Assembly (NCBI GenBank): GCA_964414895.1
Contig: CAYPXO010000002.1
Location: 35,211 to 99,210 of the forward strand
Length of the DNA stretch: 64,000 nucleotides
Direction of reading: 5' to 3'
From: an uncultured Pseudomonadales bacterium
GTDB lineage: Bacteria > Patescibacteriota > Microgenomatia > UBA1400 > CAYNMC01
Below, piece after piece: positions 9,828 through 58,696 of this stretch. Below the pieces are notes generated by a model. It did not search any database. It was not told the origin of the DNA and saw only the letters and a program-made list of their open reading frames with translations. The position numbers were made by a program, and so were the translations under genes. Position 1 is the stretch's first letter; every line of letters begins with the position of its first letter.

Positions 9828-9962
9828 TTATTCTTCGAGCGGATCCCGAGCCTGCCTGCCGGCAGGCAGGTCTGTCAAGGGAGTAGTCGAGAAGTCTTCT
9901 CTAGTAGGGTTCTCGACTTTGCCCCGCACCGTCTGGTGCAGGGCTTCGCTCGAACAATAAAA
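9828..9962. repeat. Class II GC-rich TIR element, copy 1 (intergenic)
   Basis: TTATTCTTCGAGCG...CCTGCCTGCCGGCAGGCAGG...GTCGAGAAG/CTTCTCGAC...GCCCCGCACCgtctGGTGCAGGGC...CGCTCGAACAATAA; the ends are inverted repeats. Confidence 0.7.
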
Positions 9963-14902: not shown

Positions 14903-15778
14903 CTAAAATTCCCCTAAAAAGAAAATCTCCGGTTCGAGTTCTATCTTACAGTCCATCTTCACTTTTTTACAAACCAGCTTAATTAATTTTACAACTTGTT
15001 CGGCTTTACCTCCACCAACGTTGATAAAAAAATTAGCGTGTCTCTCACTTATTTTTACCCCTCCTATTTTCTTGCCTTTCAAACCTACTTTATCAATCAA
15101 ATAACCGGCCGATTTACCTTTAGGGTTTTTAAAAATACAGCCAGCTGATTTGCCTTTCGGCTGATTGCTTCTTTCCTTTAATGTTTCCTTTATTTTTCTC
15201 TTCAAAGTACTTTCATTCTCTTTGTTTAATTTAAAACTAGCGCTAAGAACTATCATCCCTTTTTTTCGTAAGCTCGACCAGTCATAAGAAAAATCCAAGT
15301 CCTTCTTTTTAAAAACTTTTCTTTCAAGATTTTTATTTAAAACTTCCACTTTCTCCAAACAGTCGGAAAAAAAGTGATCCTTCCAATGACTGTTATTATA
15401 AACTGCTCCACCAACTGTTCCCGGCAGGCCAGCGAAAAATTCCAAACCTCCTAAACCTCTATTCACCGTTTCTTCTACAATTCTATTCACCATCACTCCT
15501 CCTTCGCAATAGGCTTTCTCATTTTGAATTTTGAATTTTGAATTTTGAATTTTTATTACCAATCCCCTCACTCCCTTATCAGCTACCAATAAATTACTTC
15601 CCCCACCTAAAATATAAAAAGGTAATTTTTTGGCTTTTGCCCAGTTAACGGCTTTGACAATCTGCTGGCTGTTTCTAGCCTCAAAAAAATAATCGGCCGG
15701 CCCGCCAATACCAAAAGTAGTAAAAGGAGCCAAATCAATATCCTTTTTAATCTTGAATTTTAATCTTGAATTTTGCAT
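14903..15778 (-). CDS. murB: UDP-N-acetylenolpyruvoylglucosamine reductase MurB
   Basis: FAD-binding N-terminus FTTFGIGGPADYF...ILGGGSNLL; carries an in-frame (AATTTTG)4 array. Confidence 0.85.
   Translation of the reverse strand: MQNSRLKFKIKKDIDLAPFTTFGIGGPADYFFEARNSQQIVKAVNWAKAKKLPFYILGGGSNLLVADKGVRGLVIKIQNSKFKIQNEKAYCEGGVMVNRIVEETVNRGLGGLEFFAGLPGTVGGAVYNNSHWKDHFFSDCLEKVEVLNKNLERKVFKKKDLDFSYDWSSLRKKGMIVLSASFKLNKENESTLKRKIKETLKERSNQPKGKSAGCIFKNPKGKSAGYLIDKVGLKGKKIGGVKISERHANFFINVGGGKAEQVVKLIKLVCKKVKMDCKIELEPEIFFLGEF
15521..15554. repeat. Heptanucleotide tandem array (AATTTTG/CAAAATT)x4.5 inside murB
   Basis: attttgaattttgaattttgaattttgaattttt; translated in frame as KIQNSKFKIQN. Confidence 0.8.
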
Positions 15779-23288: not shown

Positions 23289-23362
23289 TGTCATTCCTGG
23301 CTCGACCAGGAATCTATACAAATAATTACTGTTATAGATTCCGCATCAAGTGCGGAATGACA
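23289..23362. repeat. Class I nested-palindrome (REPIN-like) element, copy B (mraZ-rsmH spacer)
   Basis: TGTCATTCCTGGctcgaCCAGGAATCTATACAaataattacTGTTATAGATTCCGCAtcaagTGCGGAATGACA. Confidence 0.75.
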
Positions 23363-33223: not shown

Positions 33224-34280
33224 AAACTTCCAGTGTTCTCTCGGCACATTTTCTCCAAGAATACTTCTCAGTTTGCTCTTTTCCCAACTTAATTAATTTC
33301 TCTTTTTCTTTCTTGTTCATCTTTAAAAACTTGTTTATTTTTCTGCTAATATTACCAATATCCTTAGGGTCAAAATAAAAAGCTGCTCTTCCATAAATCT
33401 CTCTAAAAACAGGAATGTTCGAACAAACCACCGGACAACCAAGACTCATCGCCTCCAACCCGGGTAAACCAAAACCTTCCATTAAAGAAGGATTGATAAA
33501 ACAAAGGGCATTTTTATAAAGAGAGACTAATTCTTTGTCCGAAGCCGCCCCATAGAATATAATTTTTTCTTCTAAATTACTCTTTTCCACTGTCTTTTTT
33601 AATCTTTCATAAAAATAATCCTCTGGCCCTACAAATAATAATTTTAAATTTTGAATTTCAATTTTGAATTTGTCATTTTTAATTTTGAATTTATTAAATG
33701 CCTCTATCAACCTCTCTAAATTTTTATGCGGATAAGCATTTCCCACATAAAGTAAGTAGCTGGTAGCTGGTAGCTGGTAGCTGGTAGCTGGCTTTCTCTT
33801 CTTGAACTTTGAATCAACTCCTTCATAAATAACAACTATTTTCTCTGGGCTAACTTTCAAACATCTAACAATCTCTTTCTTAGTTGTCTTAGAAACAGCA
33901 ATAATCTTCTCTGCCTTTCTTGCTCCAATAAAAAGAAGCATTTTATAACAAAAATGTTTTATTTTATAAAACAAGCCCGGAAGACTGCTTGCCCTTCCGG
34001 TTTTAAAACGCCAAGGAATCAAATCATGAATAGTAAGAACAAACTTGCCTGGATAAAAAAGAGGAAAAGAAAAATAAGTAAAGTGAACTAAATTAAAATT
34101 TTTTTTTAGCAACCAAAAAGGAAAGCAGACTTGCTCGGCCAAAGAATGCCAGCGAAATTTTGGCTTAATAAGAATATATTCGTTCCTCTTATTAAACCTC
34201 TTTAATTGATTAAAGAGGTTTTTGGCATATCTTCCAACACCGGTTTGATCTATTAAACGACCATCGATTGCAACTTTCAT
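33201..34280 (-). CDS. Glycosyltransferase family 4 (GT-B); carries an in-frame (TAGCTGG)5 array
   Basis: MKVAIDGRLIDQTGVGRY...EGFGLPGLEAMSLGCPVV; the upstream ORF extension to 34349 is a translation of a GC hairpin island. Confidence 0.7.
33757..33791. repeat. Heptanucleotide tandem array (TAGCTGG)x5 inside a GT4 gene
   Basis: tagctggtagctggtagctggtagctggtagctgg; encodes PATSYQLPATSY. Confidence 0.8.
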
Positions 34281-36504: not shown

Positions 36505-37965
36505 TTATCTAAAATCACATCTTCGAAGGTCAACAATTGCAAAACTCTCCTGTTCTTCCAATAATAAGCATTGCTTCTTCAAATCTTTCAGCTCCTGATC
36601 CTTCTTAACCGTTACATAAAAACTTGCTCCTTTTTTTATCCTATCTTCAATATTGCCTCCAATCGGCCAGCCTTTTCTTTCGGTTTGATATAAAAAGGCT
36701 GTGTCTCCTCCATAAGGAGCAATTACCTTATCTTCCTCCTGGCTTAGCTTTTTTACTTGTTGGCCGGCAGCCACTATTTCCGGATGATTAATATTAAAAA
36801 AGTCTCTTACTTGATACCAACCAAAAGACTCCATAAACAAAAAGCAGCCAGCAGCCAGCAGCCAGCAGCCAAGGGAACTGAATATCTTTCGTGCTTCCTT
36901 TAACAAAAATAAAACCCCTCGAGCCAGAAAAATACAAACAACTGGAATGATTAAAATCTGATAATAGTCGTGGCGAACATTGCCAGTAGCTACTACTGCT
37001 AAATAAGCCAAACAGCTCAAAAACCAAAAATGAAAAAGGTAGCTTGACTTCTGGGAAGCTTTTCTTAAAAGACCAAAAGCCAAAAAAATCACCCCCCAAT
37101 AGCCCAAAATTAATTTAGCAAGCCTTTCGGCAAATAACCAATAAAACCAAGCTCCTTTAAAACGAATCTCATCACCGTTTAAAAGCCACATATTGGCGGG
37201 AATTCCTTCAGGGAACTGCTGAATCCAAAGCCGCCAGACAGCAAAAGGCAACAACCCAATAAATAAATAAATAAATAAGCCAATAAATAAATAAAGTTTT
37301 TTCTTAGATTGAAAAAACTTTTTAATAAAAATATATAAAACCGGTGGCAATATCAAAAAAAGAGCAAACGGTTTAAGAAGTAGAGCAATTATAAAAAAAA
37401 TAGAAGAAAGAAAGAAATTGAAAATTGAAAATTGAAAATTGAAAATTGAATTTGTTCCCTTTATAAAAAAATAAACAGAACCTAAACTCGTTGCTATCAT
37501 CATCGGCTCAGGCAAAATCACTCGGTTGTAATAAATGTTGTAAGGCAGAACTGCATAAAAAAAAGCTGTTATTAAAGCAAGAGGCAAACCAGCAATTTCA
37601 CCAACAATTAAAAAAAGGAAAATTATTGTTCCTAACGAAAAGAAAATTGACAATAATCTTCCTCCCGTCTCAAAACTAACAAATGAAAAAAGCTTGAAAA
37701 AAAGGCTGTGTAAAAAGGCAAAGATGGGAAACTCCACCATCCGGTATCCTTGAGGGTTCTCTTGTCCTGAAGCAATAGTGGATAAATCATCATACTTTGG
37801 TTTTAGAAGGTCAATTTCTTGATTGACAAAATTCCTTGCCACTGCCGCCGTATCTGCTTGACGCCAAGAATGCCAATCGGCCAAAGGAGCAGTTATCCTA
37901 TAAGTCCTTAAAATAAAAGCTAAAACCAAAATCAATAAAAGAAAAGCAAATTCTTTTTTAAACAT
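36505..37965 (-). CDS. GT-C fold membrane glycosyltransferase (GT39/GT83, ArnT/PMT-like) carrying three in-frame repeat arrays
   Basis: N-terminal WRQADTAAVARNF motif region, more than 10 TM helices; contains (GAAAATT)4.5, (CAGCCAG)3.7 and CCAATAAATAAATAA x2. Confidence 0.55.
   Translation of the reverse strand: MFKKEFAFLLLILVLAFILRTYRITAPLADWHSWRQADTAAVARNFVNQEIDLLKPKYDDLSTIASGQENPQGYRMVEFPIFAFLHSLFFKLFSFVSFETGGRLLSIFFSLGTIIFLFLIVGEIAGLPLALITAFFYAVLPYNIYYNRVILPEPMMIATSLGSVYFFIKGTNSIFNFQFSIFNFFLSSIFFIIALLLKPFALFLILPPVLYIFIKKFFQSKKKLYLFIGLFIYLFIGLLPFAVWRLWIQQFPEGIPANMWLLNGDEIRFKGAWFYWLFAERLAKLILGYWGVIFLAFGLLRKASQKSSYLFHFWFLSCLAYLAVVATGNVRHDYYQILIIPVVCIFLARGVLFLLKEARKIFSSLGCWLLAAGCFLFMESFGWYQVRDFFNINHPEIVAAGQQVKKLSQEEDKVIAPYGGDTAFLYQTERKGWPIGGNIEDRIKKGASFYVTVKKDQELKDLKKQCLLLEEQESFAIVDLRRCDFR
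36844..36873. repeat. Heptanucleotide tandem array (CAGCCAG)x3.7
   Basis: cagccagcagccagcagccagcagcc; in frame (WLLAAGCWLL). Confidence 0.75.
37255..37295. repeat. Tandem duplication CCAATAAATAAATAA(ATAAG) x2 with (AAAT)n
   Basis: ccaataaataaataaataagccaataaataaataaag; encodes the duplicated LFIYLFIG. Confidence 0.7.
37414..37453. repeat. Heptanucleotide tandem array (GAAAATT)x4.5
   Basis: gaaattgaaaattgaaaattgaaaattgaaaattgaattt; encodes FNFQFSIFNF in frame. Confidence 0.85.
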
Positions 37966-39637
37966 GACTCTTTCTTGCTTTTAATTTTAGGACAACTAAT
38001 AAAACTGCCATCAATCCCCAAAAAGTGAAAGCTACTTTTGAAGCTTCAAAAACATCAATATAGGCAGCATTAACCAAAATTGCTACAATTCCTCCCATCA
38101 TCCCAGCTACCAAAGCGGAAAAAAATCTATCCCTAATTCGCCTAAAAGAAAAATAACTAATCTTCAAAATCAAAGCGATAATAACAAAAAAGCTCATAAA
38201 ACCAAAAAGTCCTGTTTCTCCCAAAGCCCGAAGATAATCATTGTCTGTTGACTCTGCTTCGGTAAAATCACTAACTTTCTCTTTAGTTAAGGTTGAATAG
38301 CCAGAACCAAAGAAAGGATTTTTTAAAAAGCCTCTAATTGCTTTTGGCCAGAGGGAATCAAAACGAATAGCCGAAGATAAGCCAACAGCAAAAGCAGTTG
38401 GTGAATAGTCACGGGGCACTTTGACAACGGCTGTTTCTGTTGCCTCGTCTTGGCCTTTAAATAGATCTTCTCCTTCCTTCGCGCTCGGCGTGCTAACAAC
38501 ATCAGGAATGTCCTCATAAACATCAGGGGGCAATTTTCTTTTCTTTTCACCATCGCCTTCAGTTCCATCTTTAACAACAATCTTTGGCGGTTGATCTGAT
38601 CGAGAATAAACCAAATCTAGATCTCCTTCCAAGACAATATATCTTAAGTCTTTCTCTTCTATCCCAAATATCTTCTCTTTCACCAAATAACCAATCAAAT
38701 AATCATCCCAAAAATCAACTTTTAAAAAATCGGCAAATCTCTCTGAAAGATCGCCGCCCCAAAAAAACATCACCAAAAAACTAAAGCAAACAACTGTCAA
38801 CCAACGTGATAAACCCCAAAAAATCTTTCTTTTTTCAATCTTTAGGGCTAAAAGGCCAATAGAAACAGAAATCCCTATTAGGTAAGCAATAAAAGAAGTC
38901 CGCGAAGCAGTATAAATGAGCAAAAAGAAACTAACAAAAAAAACAACAAAAAAGAAAAATCTCTTCTTTTCGTCTTTTATAAAAATAGCCAAGCTTGCAA
39001 AAAGCGTTAAGAAAAAAGCCAAATAAGCGGCTAAATCATAGTGCCCGGCAAAAGTCGAAGGAATCCGAGCGTGTTCGGTTAAAACCAAGCGCCAGCCTTT
39101 AGAAAACTCTCTATTCATTGTTGAGTAAACCGGCCAACCAAAAAATTTCTGCCCAAAACCGTAAAAAGAAATAAACATAAGAGTAATTCCTAAAAAAACA
39201 ACCAGTCTTTTAATCTGATTTGAGTCTTTAATCGCTGAATAAAGAATAAAAAACAAAGACATATATTCAACTCTTCTCAGAAAGTGCAAAACTAGTTTAC
39301 TTATATGAATTAGCTGAAAGGGGACCGTTTTACTGATTAAAACGGCATAGAATGAAGAAAAAAGACCAACCGCTAAATACACGCCAATCGGCACCAATAA
39401 AGGATTAGGGAAAATTTTTACCTTTTTCCTTAAAACTTGAATTAAGCAAACTAAAAAAACAAAAGCTACTAAAAAATCTTCAATTCTCACTCTAACTATA
39501 TAACCGGGCAGAACATCAAAAAGCGGCCATTTAGGGTAAAGAGGAATAAAAACTAGTAAAAAAGTGGCTAAAACAAACAAAAGATTCTCTTCAAGCCACT
39601 TTGAAAGCCTGCCAATAGATTTTCTTTTTTTCTTCAT
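37958..39637 (-). CDS. O-antigen ligase/polymerase-like polytopic membrane protein
   Basis: About 12 TM helices with a large periplasmic loop and TASRTSFIAYLIG segment; family assignment tentative. Confidence 0.4.
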   Translation of the reverse strand: MKKKRKSIGRLSKWLEENLLFVLATFLLVFIPLYPKWPLFDVLPGYIVRVRIEDFLVAFVFLVCLIQVLRKKVKIFPNPLLVPIGVYLAVGLFSSFYAVLISKTVPFQLIHISKLVLHFLRRVEYMSLFFILYSAIKDSNQIKRLVVFLGITLMFISFYGFGQKFFGWPVYSTMNREFSKGWRLVLTEHARIPSTFAGHYDLAAYLAFFLTLFASLAIFIKDEKKRFFFFVVFFVSFFLLIYTASRTSFIAYLIGISVSIGLLALKIEKRKIFWGLSRWLTVVCFSFLVMFFWGGDLSERFADFLKVDFWDDYLIGYLVKEKIFGIEEKDLRYIVLEGDLDLVYSRSDQPPKIVVKDGTEGDGEKKRKLPPDVYEDIPDVVSTPSAKEGEDLFKGQDEATETAVVKVPRDYSPTAFAVGLSSAIRFDSLWPKAIRGFLKNPFFGSGYSTLTKEKVSDFTEAESTDNDYLRALGETGLFGFMSFFVIIALILKISYFSFRRIRDRFFSALVAGMMGGIVAILVNAAYIDVFEASKVAFTFWGLMAVLLVVLKLKARKSHV

Positions 39638-40403
39638 TGCCTAATAGTATACCAAAAATAAAAATCCTTAGGAGAGCTCCAATCTTCAATAAAAGTTCAA
39701 GAATAACTTTTTCCCAAGAAGGTTTGTGTTTTTCAAAAAACAGCTTTAATCCCTTATATTCTGCCAAGATCGCTTTTTGAGATAAACTTCTAGGGCTTGC
39801 CTCTTTATAATGGATAATTTCCGGCTCCGGCACATAAAAAACTCGAAAGTCCTTTTTCTTGGCCCGAAAACAAAAATCGACTTCTTCGGCATACATAAAA
39901 TAGTCTTCATCAAAGCCACCAATTTCCTCCACTAATTTTCTCTTGGTTAACAAGAAGGCTCCGGTCACCCAATCAACTTTTCTCTGCTTTCTGTAAAAAC
40001 TTCTCCTCTGTTGGTGATAAGGCTTTAAAAAGAGATTAAAAACAGGCAAGTCATCTAAAAAAAACATCATATAAAAAATCTGGCGCAGTTTTGGGAAAAA
40101 ACCGGCTGATGGTTGGAGTGTCCTGTCTTTGTTTAAAAGCTTGCAACCCAAAATATCAATCTTCTCATTTTTATCTATTATTTTTACTGCCCTTTCTATT
40201 GCTTTTTCCAAAACAACTGTATCCGAGTTTAAAAAAAGAACATATTCACCCTTTGCCTTTCCAATCGCCTGATTACATGCTTTAGCAAACCCCAAATTTT
40301 TTTTGTTTCGGATAAGCCTAATATTTAAGCTTGCATATTTCTTCTTGACACTTGACACTTGACACTTGACACTATAATCCGATCCATTATCAACAACGAT
40401 CAC
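39591..40403 (-). CDS. Glycosyltransferase family 2 (GTG start per ORF track; the conserved N-terminus LTLTIIIPSFNTKEYLEDCIRSI continues in frame to 40520 without a canonical start)
   Basis: VVDNGSD...; in-frame upstream codons encode the typical GT2 IIIPSFN motif and run to a TGA lying inside the class I element end. Confidence 0.7.
   Translation of the reverse strand: MIVVDNGSDYSVKCQVSSVKKKYASLNIRLIRNKKNLGFAKACNQAIGKAKGEYVLFLNSDTVVLEKAIERAVKIIDKNEKIDILGCKLLNKDRTLQPSAGFFPKLRQIFYMMFFLDDLPVFNLFLKPYHQQRRSFYRKQRKVDWVTGAFLLTKRKLVEEIGGFDEDYFMYAEEVDFCFRAKKKDFRVFYVPEPEIIHYKEASPRSLSQKAILAEYKGLKLFFEKHKPSWEKVILELLLKIGALLRIFIFGILLGNEEKKKIYWQAFKVA
40344..40373. repeat. Heptanucleotide tandem array (GACACTT)x4
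   Basis: cttgacacttgacacttgacacttgacact; encodes SVKCQVSSVK in frame. Confidence 0.8.
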
Positions 40404-41241: not shown

Positions 41242-42336
41242 TTAATTATCAGTAGTCTTCTGCAAAACCCTTATTGTCTTTTTGGCACATTTCTCCCAAG
41301 AGAATTTTTTTACTTGCTGCAAACCTTTTTTTATTAAATTATTCCTTTCCCTTTGCTTTGATTTTAACATCTTTGACAAACTTTTATAAATCGAATTATC
41401 AGAATAAGGGTTTTCAATATAAACCGCCGCCTCCCCTGCCACCTCAGGCAGGGAAGAAGTCTTGCTGGTTACAACCGGACAGCCGGCTGCCATTGCTTCA
41501 AGCACTGGTATGCCAAAGCCTTCATAGAGTGAAGGGTAAACAAAGCATAAGGCATTCTTTAATAAAGCTTGTTTTTCTTTTTCGCTGACAAAACCGGTAA
41601 AAATAACTTCTTTTTCTAAACCTAACTGTTTTACTTTATTAAATATCTCTTTGTAAAGCCAACCCTTCTTTCCAGCTATTACTAATTTAGTATTTAGGGA
41701 TAAGTATTTAGTATTTAGGGAAGCGAAAGCTTCTATAAGACGAGTGAGGTTTTTTCTGGGCTGGAGAGTGCCGAGGTAAAGAAGATAATTGCTAGCTGGT
41801 AGCTTTTTAAATTCATTCTTTATTCTTGATTCTTTATTCTTGATTCTTTTACTTAGTCCCGGATAAGTAACGGTAATTTTCTCCTCCGGATAATCATAAA
41901 AATGGATAATCTCCTTTTTAGTAAACTCTGAGATGGTAAAAATATGAGCCGCTTTTTTAATTGAATACCTTGTCCAGTTTTTTAGCTGCCAAAGATCGCT
42001 CTTTTTAAACTGCTCAGGAAAACGCCAGAAAGCTAAATCCATAATAGAAATCACCCTTGGGCAAGAAGAAAACCGAGGAGCATAATGACCCGGAGTAAAA
42101 AATAAATCCGGTTTAGGCCGCAAAAAGAATAATTCCAAAGGCAGCCGCCACTGCGTCCACCATAACCCCGGCCGCAAAACCTTATATCGCCACCAACCTG
42201 TCTCTTTAGGTAAATCATCTAAAAGTTTATCTTTCAAAAAAATTTTGAATTTTAAACTGCAATCCTGCCTGCCGGCAGGCAAGGTTTTAATTTTTAATTT
42301 TTCATTTTTAATTTGTCTATATATTTCCCACAACAA
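41242..42336 (-). CDS. Glycosyltransferase family 4, paralog a (tandem duplicate of 42515-43693)
   Basis: C-terminal half identical to paralog b (YLLYLGTLQPRKNL...EGFGIPVLEAMAAGCPVVTSKTSSLPEVAGEAAV). Confidence 0.75.
   Translation of the reverse strand: MLWEIYRQIKNEKLKIKTLPAGRQDCSLKFKIFLKDKLLDDLPKETGWWRYKVLRPGLWWTQWRLPLELFFLRPKPDLFFTPGHYAPRFSSCPRVISIMDLAFWRFPEQFKKSDLWQLKNWTRYSIKKAAHIFTISEFTKKEIIHFYDYPEEKITVTYPGLSKRIKNKESRIKNEFKKLPASNYLLYLGTLQPRKNLTRLIEAFASLNTKYLSLNTKLVIAGKKGWLYKEIFNKVKQLGLEKEVIFTGFVSEKEKQALLKNALCFVYPSLYEGFGIPVLEAMAAGCPVVTSKTSSLPEVAGEAAVYIENPYSDNSIYKSLSKMLKSKQRERNNLIKKGLQQVKKFSWEKCAKKTIRVLQKTTDN
41682..41721. repeat. 21-bp tandem duplication TAAGTATTTAGTATTTAGGGA x1.9
   Basis: Encodes the duplicated KYLSLNT in the GT4-a interdomain linker. 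Confidence 0.75.
41814..41848. repeat. Heptanucleotide tandem array (ATTCTTK)x5
   Basis: attctttattcttgattctttattcttgattcttt; encodes RIKNKESRIKNE. Confidence 0.75.
42263..42283. repeat. Class II core palindrome CCTGCCTGCCGGCAGGCAAGG inserted in frame near the GT4-a N-terminus
   Basis: Encodes LPAGRQDCS; paralog b has NCNA at the homologous position. Confidence 0.7.
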
Positions 42337-42416
42337 CTCATAAGAATAAACATTACTACCTACTCTTTCTTTTATATTCGCTTCGTTACCGTCAATGGCA
42401 ATAAAAATAGTAGTTA

Positions 42417-42449
42417 GTAGTTAGTAGTTAGTAGTTAGGGATCCTCTGT
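42417..42449. repeat. Heptanucleotide tandem array (TAGTAGT)x4.5, intergenic, abutting class I half-element D
   Basis: tagtagttagtagttagtagttagtagttaggg. Confidence 0.8.
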
Positions 42450-42455
42450 CATTCC

Positions 42456-42496
42456 TGGCTCCGACCAGGAATCTATACAAATAAATCTTATTACTT
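42456..42496. repeat. Class I half element (solo REP-like hairpin), copy D
   Basis: TGTCATTCCTGGctccgaCCAGGAATCTATACAAATAAATC with no right half. Confidence 0.65.
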
Positions 42497-42514
42497 ACCC
42501 TCAACCACTGACTA

Positions 42515-43693
42515 TCAACTACCTACTTCCTCATAAACTTTTAGTGTTTCCCTTGCACATTTTTCCCAAGAGAATTTTTTTACTTGCTGCAAACCTTTTT
42601 TTCTTAGATTGCTTTGCAACCGTTTACTTCCCAAAACTTTTTTAATTGCTAAACCAATTTCATCGACCTTCTGCGGATTAACTAAAACCGCCGCCTCCCC
42701 TGCCACCTCAGGCAGAGAAGAAGTCTTGCTGGTTACAACCGGACAGCCGGCTGCCATTGCTTCAAGCACTGGTATGCCAAAGCCTTCATAGAGTGAAGGG
42801 TAAACAAAGCATAAGGCATTCTTTAATAAAGCTTGTTTTTCTTTTTCGCTGACAAAACCGGTAAAAATAACTTCTTTTTCCAAACCTAACTCTTTTACTT
42901 TATTAAATATCTCTTTGTAAAGCCAACCTTTCTTTCCAGCCATTACTAATTTTAGATCTTCAAGTTTTTTTGTTTTTGAGTTTGTGTTTTTGGTTTTTGG
43001 TTTTTGGTTTTTAACATTGGCAAATGCTTTGACTAGCCTAATGAGGTTCTTCCTAGGCTGGAGGGTGCCTAAATAGAGTAAGTAATTGTTGCTAATATTA
43101 TATTTTTTCTTAATAGCTTTAAGCTTTGCGCTGTGGCTTTGCGCTTTGAGCTTTGCGCTTTGAGTTTTTCCTAAATATACTATCCTGATTCTTTCTTCAC
43201 TGAAACCCAACAAACTAACCAAATCATCTTTAGTCGCCTTTGAGTCGGCTATTACTAAATCAGACTCCTCTTTTACCCAGTAAAGCCGCCTTTTCTGCGT
43301 TTTGATAATCTTTTTAGGAAAAGTTTCCGGAAAGTGCAAAAAAGACAAATCATGAACTGTAGTTACTTTTTTTGCCCTTGTTGGCGGTTGTATCCAATCC
43401 GAGGAATGAAAAATGTCAACTCTTCCAATCAACCTCTCAACTTCTAAAAGATGTAGCTTATTCCATAGAAATTCTAGAGGCGTCGGAGGAATAGGAAAAA
43501 TTTTAAATTTTGCATTGCAGTTTTTAATTTTACATTTTAAATTTTGAATTTTCTCTCTTTGCCTTAAAGAATAACCCAAAAAAATATACTCGTTCTTTTT
43601 ATCAATTCTTAAAAGATTATCTACCAGCTTTTCAGTATAACGGCTAACGCCTGTCTGGTAAACTATTTGACTAATATCAATCCCTATTTTCAT
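42515..43693 (-). CDS. Glycosyltransferase family 4, paralog b
   Basis: MKIGIDISQIVYQTGVSRY...; the linker is encoded by repeat arrays (TTTTTGG and GCTTTGCGCTTTGAG). Confidence 0.75.
   Translation of the reverse strand: MKIGIDISQIVYQTGVSRYTEKLVDNLLRIDKKNEYIFLGYSLRQREKIQNLKCKIKNCNAKFKIFPIPPTPLEFLWNKLHLLEVERLIGRVDIFHSSDWIQPPTRAKKVTTVHDLSFLHFPETFPKKIIKTQKRRLYWVKEESDLVIADSKATKDDLVSLLGFSEERIRIVYLGKTQSAKLKAQSHSAKLKAIKKKYNISNNYLLYLGTLQPRKNLIRLVKAFANVKNQKPKTKNTNSKTKKLEDLKLVMAGKKGWLYKEIFNKVKELGLEKEVIFTGFVSEKEKQALLKNALCFVYPSLYEGFGIPVLEAMAAGCPVVTSKTSSLPEVAGEAAVLVNPQKVDEIGLAIKKVLGSKRLQSNLRKKGLQQVKKFSWEKCARETLKVYEEVGS
42966..43012. repeat. Degenerate heptanucleotide array (TTTTTGG)n
   Basis: tttttgtttttgagtttgtgtttttggtttttggtttttggttttt; encodes KNQKPKTKNTNSKTKK. 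Confidence 0.7.
43116..43166. repeat. About 15-bp tandem array GCTTTGCGCTTTGAG x3
   Basis: Encodes SAKLKAQSHSAKLKA. Confidence 0.7.
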
Positions 43694-43775: not shown

Positions 43776-44546
43776 TTATTTAATTCTCCCTTCTATTTTA
43801 ACAAAAAATATCTGCCGATAATAAGGCGGCTTATCCCAAAGCTTAAAAAAAGGAATCAAAAACAAAAAAATCTTTCTAAATAAAAAATCAACAAAAATAT
43901 TTTTTGTCATCCAACCCTTCATTAAAAAATTTCTCAAGCCTAAATTTTCATTACCCTGAATTTTAATTCCGACTTTCTTTTTTTCTCTTTTTGCTGCTAA
44001 TTTAATTAATTGAACTATTTCTTCTTTCTTTGGCAAACCATATTCCAAATGCTCTTTAAAAAAAGAAAAAGGCTGCTTAAAAACCTGTTGGTATCTTTTA
44101 TCTAATTTTTTATCTTGAATAAAACTTTTCTTTCCACAAGGAACAGCTATAAAAACCTCTCTTTTTGCCACCCGTAGAACTTCTCTTATCGCTTTTTCCC
44201 TTTTTGTCTTCTGCAAGTGTTCCAGAACATCAACACAAACAACAAAATCAAAACTATCTCTTTTAAAGGGTAGCTTTAAAACGCTTCCCTTTATCTGCTT
44301 TAACAAACCAAACTTCCTTCCTTCAAAATCCTCATCCAAACCAACAACCTCTTTTCCTAAATAAGGAGCAATCCCCAGCCACCCCGACCCCACTTCAAGA
44401 ATAGAAATTTCTTTGACACTTGACACTTGACACTTGACACTTCTTGCTATCGGCCAGTATCTAATCGCTACTTCTGGATGCCAACGAAAAAAATTGAAAA
44501 TTGAAAATTGAAAATTGAAAATTTTATTTACGATACTCATAAACAA
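43776..44546 (-). CDS. Class I SAM-dependent methyltransferase (type 11-like)
   Basis: ILEVGSGWLGIAPYLG motif I, DFVVCVDVLEHL motif; the N-terminus carries the (GAAAATT)4.5 and (GACACTT)4 arrays. Confidence 0.6.
   Translation of the reverse strand: MFMSIVNKIFNFQFSIFNFFRWHPEVAIRYWPIARSVKCQVSSVKEISILEVGSGWLGIAPYLGKEVVGLDEDFEGRKFGLLKQIKGSVLKLPFKRDSFDFVVCVDVLEHLQKTKREKAIREVLRVAKREVFIAVPCGKKSFIQDKKLDKRYQQVFKQPFSFFKEHLEYGLPKKEEIVQLIKLAAKREKKKVGIKIQGNENLGLRNFLMKGWMTKNIFVDFLFRKIFLFLIPFFKLWDKPPYYRQIFFVKIEGRIK
44413..44442. repeat. Heptanucleotide tandem array (GACACTT)x4
   Basis: ttgacacttgacacttgacacttgacactt. Confidence 0.8.
44487..44525. repeat. Heptanucleotide tandem array (GAAAATT)x4.5
   Basis: aaaattgaaaattgaaaattgaaaattgaaaatttt. 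Confidence 0.85.
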
Positions 44547-56883: not shown

Positions 56884-58662
56884 CTAGGAAGTTTTTTTAA
56901 AGATCAAAAAAGCAAGGCAAGAAAAAGCAGCAATGGAAAGCAAGTCGGCAAATAAACGCAACTTTGTCTCTCCAAATTTCAACTTAACTTGAAATTCTCC
57001 TGCCGGTGCAGAAAACAAAACCAAACCTTTGGATTTTTTAAAGTCCTTTAGATTTTCTTTTACTTCTTCCGTTAATTCTCTTCCATCAACAAACAACCGC
57101 CAGCCAGGATAATAATAGTTGTGAATCAAAATTTCTGATTTTTGTCTGCAAGCAAGATTAAAAGAAATTAAATTGCTTTTTTGTAAAAGTTTTTCCACTC
57201 GGCAATCACCCTGGTTAATTTCAACTTTTTGCTCTGGCGGTAGCTGGTATGGTTTTTTTCTTGCCCAGCGAGGAATATATTCATTCCAACCGCTGCCTAC
57301 CCAATAATAAGTCTTAAAATAGTTATCCGGATAGTCAATGGTGTCATTAATACGCAAATGATTGCGATTACCATAAAAAGCAAGAATTAAAAGCATCATA
57401 GAAGCAAAAATTAAAAACTTTCTCTCTTTTAAATTAGCAATCAGCCAACCAGACAAAAAAGCGGCTGTAAAAACGGAAAGAGCCAAAAAGCGCCAAGGAG
57501 TATCTACCTTTTGTAGTGGAGAAAAAAGAACCCAAATCGGCTTGGAAATCTCAAGCATTAAAAAGATTGAAAGAAAAAAATTAAAGAGAAGAATAATAAT
57601 AAGGCTTAAGTTTTTTCGCTTATTTTTCTTTTTTATTATAAAGTATATATAGTATACAGGAGTACACTTAATAATAAGAAAAATGCTTAGAAAAACTGCT
57701 AGCCATTGGGCAATTCCAATTCTTAAGGTCAGATCATTACCAAAGCCCGGCGCTCCATAGCCCCAAGGCGAATAGAGGAGTTTTTTAAAAGAAACAAATT
57801 GGTCATAATTGGCAGAAACAATCTCTGTGTAGTAAGTGTAAGCAGCTTCCCAAACGGCAGGGATTAAATAAAAACTACAAATTCCCACCGCCAGCAAAAT
57901 GGCAACCAGCCACCGTTTTATTATCCTTTTTTTCTTTTTTGAATAACTAACTAGCCAAAAAGAGAATAAAAACCAAAGAGGAAAGAAAATAACCAAAGTT
58001 ATCAAATGAGAAAGAATCAAACCAGCCAAAGCAAAAACAAGAGCGACAAAATTTTTCTTTGTCGATTTTTTGGAAAACCGAAAGACAAAAAGAAAAACTA
58101 AAGGAACAAAAGCAAAGCCAACTGCTTCCCCTAGAGAGGCAGTCACAAAAATCTTGACAAAGCGATAAGGAGCCCAAGACCAAAGAATGCTAGAGACAAA
58201 AGCGGCCCAACTGTTCTTAAAAAGCTCTCTTGCCAAAAAATACATTCCCAAAGCAGAAGTAAAATAGGAAAAAACAATAACCAGCTTAACCGATTCGGCC
58301 AAATTAAAACCAGCAAAATGAAAGCCTTCGGCCAGCCAGTAAGGCAAAGGATAGGCAAAAATAAAAACCGGGTAACCTCTAGTGCCGGAAAACTGGCCGG
58401 CCCAGCGAGGAGGAAACTGGCCTTCTTTTAAAATACGATCAAATTCATAAAGCCTGGCCAGGTGTGACTGTCCATCATGGGAAGTATAAAATTTCGGCCC
58501 CCAAAGATCTTTAAGAGCAAAAAGAGATATAACAAAAATTGCAACAATCAACAATAAATTTATTCCTTTTTTCACTTTTTTAAGGTATAGATAAAACAAA
58601 TAATAATTATTGTTCGAGCCCTGCCTGCCGGACGGGCAGGCAGGCAGGCGTGTCGAGAACAT
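56884..58662 (-). CDS. Large polytopic membrane protein, GT-C-like (YfhO/ArnT-like); the N-terminus reads through a class II element
   Basis: More than 12 TM helices, HDGQSHLARLYEFDR motif; the first ~20 codons (MFSTRLPACPSGRQGS) are element sequence. Confidence 0.4.
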   Translation of the reverse strand: MFSTRLPACPSGRQGSNNNYYLFYLYLKKVKKGINLLLIVAIFVISLFALKDLWGPKFYTSHDGQSHLARLYEFDRILKEGQFPPRWAGQFSGTRGYPVFIFAYPLPYWLAEGFHFAGFNLAESVKLVIVFSYFTSALGMYFLARELFKNSWAAFVSSILWSWAPYRFVKIFVTASLGEAVGFAFVPLVFLFVFRFSKKSTKKNFVALVFALAGLILSHLITLVIFFPLWFLFSFWLVSYSKKKKRIIKRWLVAILLAVGICSFYLIPAVWEAAYTYYTEIVSANYDQFVSFKKLLYSPWGYGAPGFGNDLTLRIGIAQWLAVFLSIFLIIKCTPVYYIYFIIKKKNKRKNLSLIIILLFNFFLSIFLMLEISKPIWVLFSPLQKVDTPWRFLALSVFTAAFLSGWLIANLKERKFLIFASMMLLILAFYGNRNHLRINDTIDYPDNYFKTYYWVGSGWNEYIPRWARKKPYQLPPEQKVEINQGDCRVEKLLQKSNLISFNLACRQKSEILIHNYYYPGWRLFVDGRELTEEVKENLKDFKKSKGLVLFSAPAGEFQVKLKFGETKLRLFADLLSIAAFSCLAFLIFKKTS

Positions 58663-58696
58663 CGGAATTTGAACTTCCCGATTTCACTCGAAGAGT
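58608..58696. repeat. Class II GC-rich TIR element, copy 5
   Basis: TTATTGTTCGAGCC-CTGCCTGCCGGACGGGCAGGCAGG-CGTGTCGAGAAC...CACTCGAAGAGTAAAA. Confidence 0.7.

What the first reader, a model, noticed from the sequence alone, without database searches (positions are those of the whole stretch)
41242..43693. Tandem GT4 paralogs with about 260-bp near-identical 3' cores and divergent, repeat-built linkers
Segments 41424-41684 and 42688-42948 are near-identical at nucleotide level (a handful of substitutions), as are 41281-41340 and 42541-42600. The N-domains differ, and the interdomain linkers are built from different repeat arrays (21-mer x2 and ATTCTTK x5 in a; TTTTTGG and GCTTTGCGCTTTGAG arrays in b). 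Paralog a additionally carries the class II palindrome in frame (LPAGRQDCS) where b has NCNA. Direct repeats of this size in head-to-tail genes can drive deletion or gene conversion, producing chimeric transferases.
Basis: seen in the sequence. Interest (0 to 1): 0.5.

Follow-up and report, generated by a model that had tools for sequence, protein, structure and literature searches.

The report
Gene-converted tandem glycosyltransferases with heptamer-repeat loops
Two neighbouring sugar-transferase genes of an uncultured Microgenomates (candidate phyla radiation, CPR) bacterium have recently copied about 270 bases of their catalytic core onto each other, and their surface loops are written by short 7-base tandem repeats, one carrying a 21-base palindrome; the gene conversion is ordinary, the repeat system is more unusual.

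Summary
Segments 41424-41684 and 42688-42948 are 256/261 identical (164-nt exact run), and the flanks are only about 45-50% identical. The second pair is real, but its partner lies at 42551-42610, not 42541-42600.

Both genes (minus strand) are GT4/GT-B glycosyltransferases. They are not recent duplicates: the b-a pair, with cleanly distinct N-domains, is conserved in about 50 of 56 related Microgenomates loci. None of 81 related loci shows such a tract. Synonymous sites are homogenised inside the tract (84/87 identical codons versus 35/70 upstream), and b's C-domain types as a-like. So the identity is itself the product of recent gene conversion of the donor-binding core.

The "repeat-built linkers" are in-frame heptanucleotide arrays at the three lowest-confidence loops of the predicted fold. 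They belong to a window-wide class: 14 strong period-7 arrays against 0 expected, none at periods 6 or 8-15, and 12 of 14 in the glycan cluster.

The in-frame palindrome is a 21-nt insertion. The same element sits inside heptamer arrays in other genomes.

Unexplained: the arrays are narrowly 27-36 nt long, and several replace native sequence without changing its length.

The parts
41242..42405 (-). Gene a: a-type GT4 glycosyltransferase, 387 codons counted from ATT at 42405-42403. The public annotation (P0121, 363 aa) starts at an internal TTG and omits the conserved N-terminus IAIDGNEANIKERVGSNVY.
   Evidence: ORF. Pfam PF13439 + PF00534 above their cut-offs. 17 orthologs cover 98-100% of the 387-aa reading. 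ATT sits at the position where 40+ orthologs have ATG.
42515..43693 (-). Gene b: b-type GT4 glycosyltransferase, 392 aa, ATG start.
   Evidence: AlphaFold2 model with pLDDT 87 and a GT-B fold. Foldseek top hits are MshA, the 7qsg mannosyltransferase, GlgM and BshA.
41421..41688 (-). Recent gene-conversion tract, copy in a (codons 240-329, KLVIAGKKGW...EAAVY; the C-domain Rossmann core including the E-x7-E motif).
   Evidence: 268 nt, 98% identical to 42685-42952. 84 of 87 identical-residue codons are identical codons.
42685..42952 (-). Recent gene-conversion tract, copy in b (residues 248-337).
   Evidence: b's C-domain scores a-type 239 / b-type 235 bits, against 164/262 for the L001 ortholog.
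41285..41340 (-). Second, short identity patch, copy in a (KKGLQQVKKFSWEKCA). It is separated from the main tract by about 90 nt of roughly 45% identity.
42555..42610 (-).
   Evidence: 54/60 over 41281-41340 vs 42551-42610.
42285..42314 (-). Heptamer array, gene a loop 1 (N-domain). Coding-strand unit AAAAATT, peptide QIKNEKLKIK.
42264..42284 (-). 21-nt palindromic insertion (coding strand CCTTGCCTGCCGGCAGGCAGG, peptide TLPAGRQ) abutting the loop-1 array. It is absent from b and from all 17 a-type orthologs.
   Evidence: The same element lies inside heptamer arrays in L033, L162 and L163.
41815..41849 (-). Heptamer array, gene a loop 2 (interdomain linker). Units AAGAATC/AAGAATA, peptide RIKNKESRIKNE.
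41685..41721 (-). It abuts the 5' (gene-sense) boundary of the conversion tract.
   Evidence: (family D6).
43498..43552 (-). Heptamer array, gene b loop 1 (residues about 48-66). It is 86% identical over 56 nt to an array in a third GT4 gene (33637-33692).
   Evidence: pLDDT 72-73.
43116..43168 (-). Heptamer array, gene b loop 2 (interdomain linker, residues about 176-193), peptide SAKLKAQSHSAKLKA.
   Evidence: pLDDT 64.
42966..43012 (-). Heptamer array, gene b loop 3 (residues about 228-243). Unit AAAAACC, peptide KNQKPKTKNTNSK. It lies 14 nt from the tract boundary.
   Evidence: pLDDT 53, the lowest in the model.
42408..42438 (-). Non-coding perfect heptamer array (coding-sense CTAACTA x4.4) immediately upstream of gene a's ATT. 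It carries stop codons in all three frames.
   Evidence: L001 has a different array (AATTTCT x4.6) at the same place.
42444..42478 (.). Class I palindrome (GTCATTCCTG-N8-CAGGAATCTATA) in the b-a spacer. Other copies lie at 23293, 40523 and 40570, and in L001.

Best explanation
Genes a and b are an ancient tandem pair of retaining GT-B (GT4) glycosyltransferases in a cell-surface glycan cluster of a Microgenomates (CPR) bacterium. Their N-domains, which bind the acceptor in this fold, are old and distinct. The core of their C-domains, which binds the nucleotide-sugar donor, has been homogenised by recent non-reciprocal homologous recombination between the two copies (gene conversion).

Most of b's C-domain is a-type, so the net direction is a to b. 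The 3' third of the tract carries a few b-type residues in a, so exchange has probably gone both ways or more than once. A protein-identical but synonymously diverged stretch just upstream (NYLLYLGTLQPRKNL) looks like an older tract. The recent tract stops where the two genes carry different heptamer arrays, a heterology that would block heteroduplex extension.

The three repeat-built segments per gene are in-frame heptanucleotide simple-sequence arrays. Seven bases times three makes a 7-residue peptide period. They occupy the three lowest-confidence segments of the predicted fold (short loops plus two short helices) and belong to a window-wide class of roughly 30-nt arrays. One array in a has also received a 21-nt palindromic mini-element.

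Shown: the identity pattern, codon homogenisation, absence of the tract in orthologous pairs, domain typing, array statistics, loop mapping, and recurrence of the palindrome. Inferred: the recombination mechanism, its direction, the barrier role of the arrays, and that both enzymes use the same donor.
For: - Sharp-edged 268-nt 98% tract and a second patch, in genes otherwise about 45-50% identical.
- Identical codons at identical residues: 84/87 in the tract, 35/70 upstream, 18/28 downstream.
- The syntenic relative L001 has both genes in the same order (PMT-MT-b-a-Hexapep-GT2-Wzy) but only 46-75% nucleotide identity per 60-nt window across the C-domain, about the same as across the rest of the gene.
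- Self-BLAST of 81 related loci finds no comparable a/b tract; the best is 135 nt at 78%.
- HMM typing: N-domains are cleanly a or b in all 56 CPR loci. The window b C-domain scores aC 239 / bC 235, against at most 164 aC bits for any other b gene.
- GT4/GT-B membership.
- Arrays: only period 7 is enriched (14 vs 0.0 expected). 13 of 14 lie in a CDS and in frame. 12 of 14 lie in 31-49 kb (binomial P = 1.2e-5).
- The arrays coincide with the three lowest-pLDDT segments of the b model and with 7-residue-periodic, length-variable segments in orthologs.
- The palindrome is absent from 17 orthologs and recurs inside arrays in other genomes.
Against: - No reads or coverage are available, so a mis-join across the 164-nt exact repeat cannot be formally excluded.
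- No close relative is available: the next-best homologs are 58-64% identical, and a search of the JGI metagenome contig collection for a 35-mer of the tract found nothing. The event therefore cannot be dated or polarised by a sister genome.
- Donor polarity rests on profile typing with few diagnostic residues in the 3' third.
- Close b homologs P0002 and P0004 also carry a-like GKKGW(L/M)Y...KQLGLE segments. Part of b's a-likeness may therefore predate this genome.
- Gene a has no canonical start codon, so its expression is inferred only from conservation of the N-terminal motif.
Confidence: 0.8

Rival explanations
1. Assembly artefact: the near-identical segment arises from a collapsed or duplicated repeat, or from a chimeric join in a metagenome assembly, and the real genome has divergent cores or a single gene.
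For: The exact run of 164 nt is longer than typical assembly k-mers and about one read length, so the assembly graph is ambiguous here. The source is a single 108-kb metagenomic contig, and no second instance is on record.
Against: The two copies differ at 5 of 261 positions, so they were assembled separately. Each copy continues into the correctly typed tail: a-type YIENP..., b-type LVNP.... Gene order and spacing match L001 and about 50 other loci. A wrong path through a head-to-tail repeat would delete or duplicate 1264 nt rather than produce this layout.
Confidence: 0.05
2. No recombination: the identity reflects extreme purifying selection on this stretch, acting on the protein or on an embedded nucleotide-level element.
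For: The tract encodes the most conserved part of GT4 enzymes, including E-x7-E.
Against: Synonymous sites are homogenised: 84/87 identical codons against about 50% elsewhere. The same residues in orthologs a1/b1 and in 50 other pairs use different codons; nucleotide identity there is 46-75%. There is no Rfam hit in the window.
Confidence: 0.02
3. The heptamer arrays are contingency loci. Slipped-strand gain or loss of single 7-nt units frameshifts the glycan genes on and off, as in E. coli neuO, giving phase-variable surface glycans. This concerns the arrays only and is compatible with the gene conversion.
For: The unit length is not divisible by 3. The arrays are concentrated in surface-glycan genes (12 of 14). 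One array sits directly upstream of gene a's start. The neuO precedent is PMC13001214. One same-locus pair of metagenome contigs differs in array length: L098 43 nt against L159 at least 57 nt.
Against: All 13 coding arrays are in the ON frame; (1/3)^13 = 6e-7 if phase were free. The arrays have only 4-5 units, against 3-53 in neuO. Each GT4 has three arrays rather than one near the 5' end. Arrays also lie in essential murB and in a transmembrane helix. Orthologs at 95% identity have identical array loops. Seven of eight same-locus pairs or groups of metagenome contigs carry identical array lengths.
Confidence: 0.1
4. The arrays and the palindrome are products of an active, templated or mobile process rather than passive slippage. 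Patches of about 30 nt of heptamer-periodic sequence are written into DNA in place, by transient-misalignment synthesis or ectopic conversion between arrays, and then serve as landing sites for a 21-nt palindromic mini-element.
For: - Bimodal length distribution with a discrete 26-36-nt class, both in the window and in 800 kb of unbiased related loci.
- Length-neutral replacement of non-periodic orthologous sequence in a transmembrane helix and in a GT2; MurB shows no insertion at the array site.
- The same unit occurs at non-homologous sites within a genome and across genomes (AATTTTC, AAGTGTC).
- Different units occur at orthologous sites.
- Loops turn over wholesale between 95% and 82% protein identity.
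- The 21-nt palindrome lies inside arrays at four independent sites in three genomes; a fifth copy at window 20297 has only partly periodic flanks.
Against: No enzyme or template has been identified. Heptamer over-representation is general in bacteria and has been attributed to polymerase slippage (Mrazek 2007, as cited in PMC4692102). The reading-frame constraint (changes of 3 units = 21 nt) could by itself quantise array lengths in coding DNA. (AAGTGTC)n occurs in contigs of 25-69% GC with unrelated flanks, so shared units can be convergent. The sample of length-neutral cases is small.
Confidence: 0.2

Closest known systems
Recombination between tandem glycosyltransferase paralogs in the Neisseria lgt locus (lgtA/lgtD, lgtB/lgtE)
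   Same: Head-to-tail glycosyltransferase paralogs in a surface-glycan locus share homologous segments that recombine. Gonococcal strain 15253 retains only lgtA and lgtE of the five lgt genes (abstract of PMC2192810). That the loss arose by recombination between paralogs is my own recollection.
   Different: Here the outcome is conversion of about 270 nt, with both genes retained. No deletion or hybrid gene was seen. The enzymes are GT4/GT-B, and the organism is a CPR bacterium rather than a pathogen under immune selection.
Over-represented heptanucleotide simple-sequence repeats in bacteria (Mrazek et al. 2007; Xanthomonas GGGAATC and Nostoc GGGGA(C/T)T arrays, PMC4692102; cyanobacterial STRR repeats)
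   Same: Tandem arrays with a 7-nt period and a few units, with genome-specific unit families, strongly over-represented relative to other unit lengths. Length and sequence vary between related genomes at the same locus.
   Different: Those arrays are described as intergenic. Here 13 of 14 lie inside coding sequences and in frame, at about the rate expected from the 92% coding density. They encode protein loops, sometimes without changing protein length.
E. coli K1 neuO heptanucleotide contingency locus
   Same: A heptanucleotide array (AAGACTC) inside the coding region of a surface-glycan-modifying enzyme. Translation is in frame only for certain array lengths (PMC13001214).
   Different: neuO has one long 5' array of 3-53 units that switches at a measurable rate. 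Here there are several short arrays (4-5 units) per gene, all in frame, and stable between 95%-identical orthologs.
Small dispersed repeats (SDRs, 21-27 nt) of Nostoc (Elhai et al. 2008, cited in PMC5861425 and PMC3116915) and Rickettsia palindromic elements
   Same: A very small hairpin-forming dispersed element is found at some sites but not at orthologous ones, including in-frame positions in protein-coding genes. From memory, unverified because the paper is not held: some SDRs are nested in tandem heptamer repeats.
   Different: The host lineage is different (CPR). The element is 21 nt (3 x 7), preserving both reading frame and heptamer phase. Rickettsia palindromic elements are about 100-150 nt. 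No transposase or RAYT-like gene is linked here.
In-frame tandem repeats creating disordered regions in Borg proteins (PMC9879509)
   Same: Rapidly evolving, perfect tandem repeats inside ORFs that add low-complexity segments to proteins (abstract).
   Different: From memory: Borg coding repeats have unit lengths divisible by 3 and are long. Here the unit is 7 nt, the arrays are about 30 nt, and the peptide period of 7 arises from reading all three frames of the unit.

Membership tests
GT4 / GT-B retaining glycosyltransferases | N-terminal Glyco_transf_4 and C-terminal Glycos_transf_1 domains above Pfam gathering scores | tested here: met
   a: PF00534 136.6 bits, PF13439 34.7 bits. b: PF00534 127.9 bits, PF13439 52.0 bits.
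GT4 / GT-B retaining glycosyltransferases | Two-Rossmann-domain GT-B fold | tested here: met
   AlphaFold2 model of b: pLDDT 87, pTM 0.86. Foldseek probability 1.00 to MshA (3c4q), mannosyltransferase 7qsg, GlgM and BshA, with TM-scores of 0.65-0.74.
GT4 / GT-B retaining glycosyltransferases | E-x7-E motif in the C-domain | tested here: met
   E303-GFGIPVL-E311 in b. Both glutamates are invariant in 22 sequences. The motif lies inside the converted tract.
GT4 / GT-B retaining glycosyltransferases | Assignment to a named equivalog, that is, a specific donor and acceptor | tested here: not met
   All NCBIfam hits are far below their cut-offs; the best is TIGR04047 at 108-110 bits against a cut-off of 260. 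Specificity is unknown.
Gene-conversion tract between paralogs | A block of near-identity with abrupt boundaries inside otherwise divergent paralogs | tested here: met
   98% over 268 nt; flanks are 30-40% identical per 10-nt window.
Gene-conversion tract between paralogs | Homogenised synonymous sites | tested here: met
   84/87 identical codons in the tract against 35/70 upstream.
Gene-conversion tract between paralogs | Orthologous pairs in other genomes lack the tract (incongruence between the N-domain and tract histories) | tested here: met
   L001 a1/b1. None of 81 loci has a comparable tract.
Gene-conversion tract between paralogs | Both copies verified in the underlying reads | not testable with these tools
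   No reads are available. The contig is on record only once.
Heptanucleotide SSR arrays (STRR-like) | Tandem 7-nt period, significantly over-represented | tested here: met
   14 arrays against 0.0 expected; none at periods 6 or 8-15.
Heptanucleotide SSR arrays (STRR-like) | STRR in the strict sense: intergenic repeats of heterocystous cyanobacteria | tested here: not met
   The organism is a Microgenomates/CPR bacterium. 13 of 14 arrays are coding.
Phase-variable contingency locus | SSR with a unit not divisible by 3, in a coding region or promoter of a surface-structure gene | tested here: met
Phase-variable contingency locus | Copy-number polymorphism with ON and OFF alleles in populations or close relatives | tested here: inconclusive
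   13 of 13 arrays are in frame. Loops are identical in orthologs at 95% identity. Population data for this genome are lacking.
Small dispersed palindromic mobile element (SDR/RPE-like) | The same short palindrome at several non-homologous sites, and present or absent at orthologous sites | tested here: met
   Window copies at 9854, 20297 and 42267, plus a variant at 58624. Also L033, L162 and L163. Absent from 17 orthologs of gene a.
Small dispersed palindromic mobile element (SDR/RPE-like) | Demonstrated mobility, or an associated transposase | not tested
   No candidate enzyme was examined; only 64 kb of the genome is available.

The most novel reading that the evidence does not exclude
Microgenomates genomes may carry a nested system of micro-elements that edits coding DNA. 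Patches of about 30 nt with heptamer periodicity would be written in place, often without changing length, into genes for cell-envelope enzymes. These patches would then act as landing pads for a 21-nt (3 x 7) palindromic mini-element that preserves both the reading frame and the heptamer phase. Together they would remodel protein surface loops on a species timescale. The same heterologous arrays would delimit gene-conversion tracts between paralogs.
Probability: 0.2. Interest if true: 0.75.

Novelty: new variant of a known kind. Interest (0 to 1): 0.45.

Why it matters
Gene conversion confined to the donor-binding core, with acceptor-binding N-domains kept distinct, shows that GT-B glycosyltransferases evolve as two modules. 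It fits the fact that b has lost its C-domain altogether in 14 related loci.

The wider point concerns the repeats. In this CPR lineage, 7-nt tandem arrays, normally excluded from coding DNA because they shift the reading frame, are tolerated inside genes at about the rate expected from the 92% coding density. They build protein loops, occur even in murB and in a transmembrane helix, and host a 21-nt palindrome. If an active process underlies this, it would be a previously undescribed route of protein-loop diversification in reduced genomes.

There is also a practical consequence. Gene callers truncate gene a, which has an ATT at the Met position, and similar annotations in CPR genomes may need correction.

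Tried and rejected
- Looked for the source contig and strain variants. An exact-protein look-up of b found nothing. A 35-mer from the tract had no match in the JGI metagenome contig collection. The genome-contig scan did not return the source genome; the best hit was 52-53% identical. Dating the event, and population variation, therefore could not be addressed.
- Considered that a and b are recent duplicates. Rejected: both orthologs are present across Microgenomates.
- Considered that upstream ATG read-through into gene a could be switched by array length. Rejected: the array has stop codons in all three frames (direct reading).
- Considered that (AAGTGTC)n is a lineage-specific mobile cassette. 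Rejected: it occurs with unrelated flanks in at least 80 contigs of 25-69% GC.
- Looked for known RNAs or tRNAs in the spacers and in the palindrome-bearing intergenic element. None was found.
- NCBIfam gave no specific enzyme name.
- Elhai et al. 2008 and the full text of the lgt paper are not held. Details of those comparisons rest on memory.
- Literature searches found no report of heptamer arrays in CPR/Patescibacteria genomes.


Full report
OBSERVATION

Both genes lie on the minus strand: a = 41242-42405 and b = 42515-43693.

The full tract is 41421-41688 vs 42685-42952 (268 nt, 98%), with a 164-nt exact run. Identity falls to 3-4 bases in 10 just outside both ends.

The second pair is real, but the true partner of 41281-41340 is 42551-42610 (54/60), not 42541-42600 (13/60). 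The remaining parts of the genes are about 45-50% identical at the nucleotide level and 49% at the protein level overall.

Self-BLAST of the whole window finds only this pair plus two array-to-array matches.

WHAT THE GENES ARE

Both carry Glyco_transf_4 plus Glycos_transf_1 above Pfam thresholds. An AlphaFold2 model of b (pLDDT 87) has a GT-B fold. Its best solved matches are MshA, a mycobacterial mannosyltransferase, GlgM and BshA. The E-x7-E motif is present and invariant. No NCBIfam equivalog is reached, so donor and acceptor are unknown.

Homologs are from Shapirobacteria, Beckwithbacteria and other Microgenomates. The window holds a division/cell-wall (dcw) cluster at 1-23 kb and a surface-glycan cluster at 31-49 kb.

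NOT RECENT DUPLICATES

A syntenic contig, L001, has the order PMT-methyltransferase-b-a-hexapeptide transferase-GT2-Wzy. tblastn and HMM typing show the b-then-a arrangement in about 50 of 56 Microgenomates loci. The N-domains are unambiguously a-type or b-type everywhere.

THE IDENTITY IS A CONVERSION FOOTPRINT

- In L001 the a1/b1 pair shows only ordinary conservation across the C-domain, 46-75% per 60-nt window.
- None of 81 related loci has a comparable internal repeat; the best is 135 nt at 78%.
- Within the tract, 84 of 87 identical-residue codons are the same codon, against 35 of 70 upstream. The homogenisation is therefore at synonymous sites and not due to protein constraint.
- The window's b C-domain scores 239 bits on an a-type profile and 235 on a b-type profile. 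Every other b gene scores at most 164 on the a-type profile. Most of b's C-domain is therefore a-derived.
- In the 3' third of the tract, a carries several b-type residues (CFVY, AMAAG, VVTS). This suggests exchange in both directions or repeated events.
- Immediately upstream, NYLLYLGTLQPRKNL is identical in protein but differs in codons, as an older tract would.
- The second patch is separated from the main tract by about 90 nt of roughly 45% identity. It is therefore a separate event.
- The gene-sense 5' boundary of the tract abuts the loop-3 arrays, which differ between a and b. I infer that this heterology stopped heteroduplex extension.

The tract covers residues 248-337 of b, essentially the whole C-terminal Rossmann core.

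ARTEFACT?

Without reads this cannot be excluded. Three things argue for a true tandem pair: the copies differ at five positions, each continues into the correctly typed C-terminal tail, and the layout matches about 50 independent assemblies.

THE "REPEAT-BUILT LINKERS"

Across the window:

- Period 7 is unique. There are 11 perfect arrays of at least 3 units (27-36 nt) and 14 strong arrays, against 0.0 expected. There are none at periods 6 or 8-15.
- Thirteen of the 14 lie in coding sequence and are in frame. That is about the 92% coding density, so there is no avoidance of genes.
- Twelve of the 14 lie in the glycan cluster (P = 1.2e-5).
- Others sit in murB and in a transmembrane helix of a PMT-like protein.

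In a and b the arrays occupy three homologous positions: an N-domain loop, the interdomain linker, and a C-domain loop. These are the three lowest-pLDDT blocks of the model (72-73, 64 and 53). Orthologs in other genomes have 7-residue-periodic peptides at the same three positions, but with different sequences and lengths.

Three a-type orthologs that are 95% identical to each other have identical loops. At 82% identity in the rest of the protein, the loops are only 16% identical. Turnover is therefore wholesale but not fast.

Heptamer over-representation in bacteria is known, and polymerase slippage has been proposed as its cause. Coding, in-frame arrays of this kind were not found in the literature I could search.

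FEATURES THAT SIMPLE SLIPPAGE DOES NOT EXPLAIN

1. Perfect-run lengths are bimodal. There is a gap and then a discrete 26-36-nt class, both in the window and in 800 kb of loci chosen without regard to repeats.
2. Several arrays replace non-periodic orthologous sequence of the same length. Examples are the transmembrane helix at 36843-36871 and the GT2 at 40344-40373. MurB shows no insertion relative to solved structures or CPR homologs.
3. The same unit recurs at non-homologous sites. AATTTTC occurs three times and AAGTGTC twice in the window, and AATTTTC also occurs in four other genomes. Orthologous sites carry different units.

The frame constraint (steps of 3 units = 21 nt) may account for part of point 1. 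Convergence is clearly possible, because (AAGTGTC)n occurs with unrelated flanks in at least 80 contigs of 25-69% GC.

Phase variation of the neuO kind is disfavoured for four reasons:

- All 13 coding arrays are in frame.
- The arrays are short.
- There are several per gene.
- They are stable among close orthologs.

THE PALINDROME

In gene a, a 21-nt insertion (coding strand CCTTGCCTGCCGGCAGGCAGG, 42264-42284) abuts the loop-1 array. It is absent from b and from all 17 a-type orthologs.

The same 21-mer, with one or two substitutions, sits inside heptamer arrays in three other places:

- in MurB of another genome: (CGAAATT)n | element | CGAAATT (L163)
- in loop 3 of that genome's a-type GT4 (L162)
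- in an intergenic (AGTATTA)n array (L033).

Twenty-one bases equal three heptamers, so the insertion preserves both frame and phase. This is the strongest hint of a small dispersed element with a preference for heptamer arrays. It is reminiscent of the Nostoc SDRs; that comparison is from memory, because the paper is not held.

In the window the same palindrome also forms one hairpin of a structured intergenic element of about 125 nt.

VERDICT

The more interesting content is that the "linkers" belong to a class of in-frame heptamer arrays, with a nested 21-nt palindrome, whose origin is unexplained.

Noticed in passing
window 42405-42403 (gene a); L001 8613-8615; window 40511-40509 (GT2 gene 39591-40403): Gene a has ATT exactly where more than 40 orthologs have ATG. 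An in-frame stop lies just upstream and there is no ATG/GTG/TTG before the conserved IDGNEAN motif. The closest relative, L001, shares the ATT, also preceded by a heptamer array. The GT2 gene likewise has only an ATT between the upstream stop (40523) and its conserved IIIPSFN start. Both ATTs lie just downstream of a class I palindrome. Public annotation truncates both proteins.
   Followed up: partly
L004 4806-5339, L015 4689-5318, and L005-L009, L012, L018, L031, L033, L041, L051, L054: In 14 of 56 Microgenomates loci the b gene is an intact ORF of about 180 aa comprising the N-domain only. It ends at the ..YPG interdomain linker, and in most of these loci a full-length a gene follows directly. 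That a gene's C-domain types as intermediate between a and b. This may be a split or C-domain-sharing GT-B arrangement.
   Followed up: partly
window 9830-9960 (-) and about 58600-58690 (-): An intergenic element of about 125 nt folds into a closing stem plus three hairpins (MFE -68.8 kcal/mol, z = -7.7). Its third hairpin is the class II palindrome. A shorter two-hairpin relative lies at about 58.6 kb. There is no Rfam or tRNA match.
   Followed up: partly
window 23293, 40523, 40570, 42451; L001 14657, 15911: A class I palindrome family, GTCATTCCTG-N(6-8)-CAGGAATCTATA, occurs in intergenic spacers in both orientations. It is shared with the closest relative, L001. It is REP-like, and no function was tested.
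   Followed up: no
window 15521-15553 (murB) and 36843-36871 (PMT-like membrane protein): Perfect heptamer arrays lie inside an essential cell-wall enzyme and inside a predicted transmembrane helix. Neither changes protein length relative to orthologs.
   Followed up: partly
window 33637-33692 vs 43496-43551; 37407-37447 vs 44483-44523: Arrays in different genes match beyond chance. The first pair is 56 nt at 86% identity, between a third GT4 and gene b. The second pair is 41 nt at 95% identity, between a PMT-like gene and the methyltransferase; it encodes (I)FNFQFSIFNFF in both. This suggests array-to-array copying or shared descent.
   Followed up: no
L082-L161 (metagenome contigs): (AAGTGTC)n arrays of at least 30 nt occur in at least 80 contigs of 25-69% GC with unrelated flanks, often next to arrays of related units. 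Seven of eight same-locus pairs or groups of contigs have identical array lengths. One pair (L098/L159) differs: 43 nt in L098 against at least 57 nt in L159, where the array is cut by the contig end.
   Followed up: partly
L002-L056 record titles: Many third-party-annotation (TPA) metagenome-assembled genomes (MAGs) that carry this Microgenomates-type gene cluster are titled 'uncultured Gammaproteobacteria/Pseudomonadales', and one 'Bathyarchaeia'. These are probably taxonomic mislabels.
   Followed up: no
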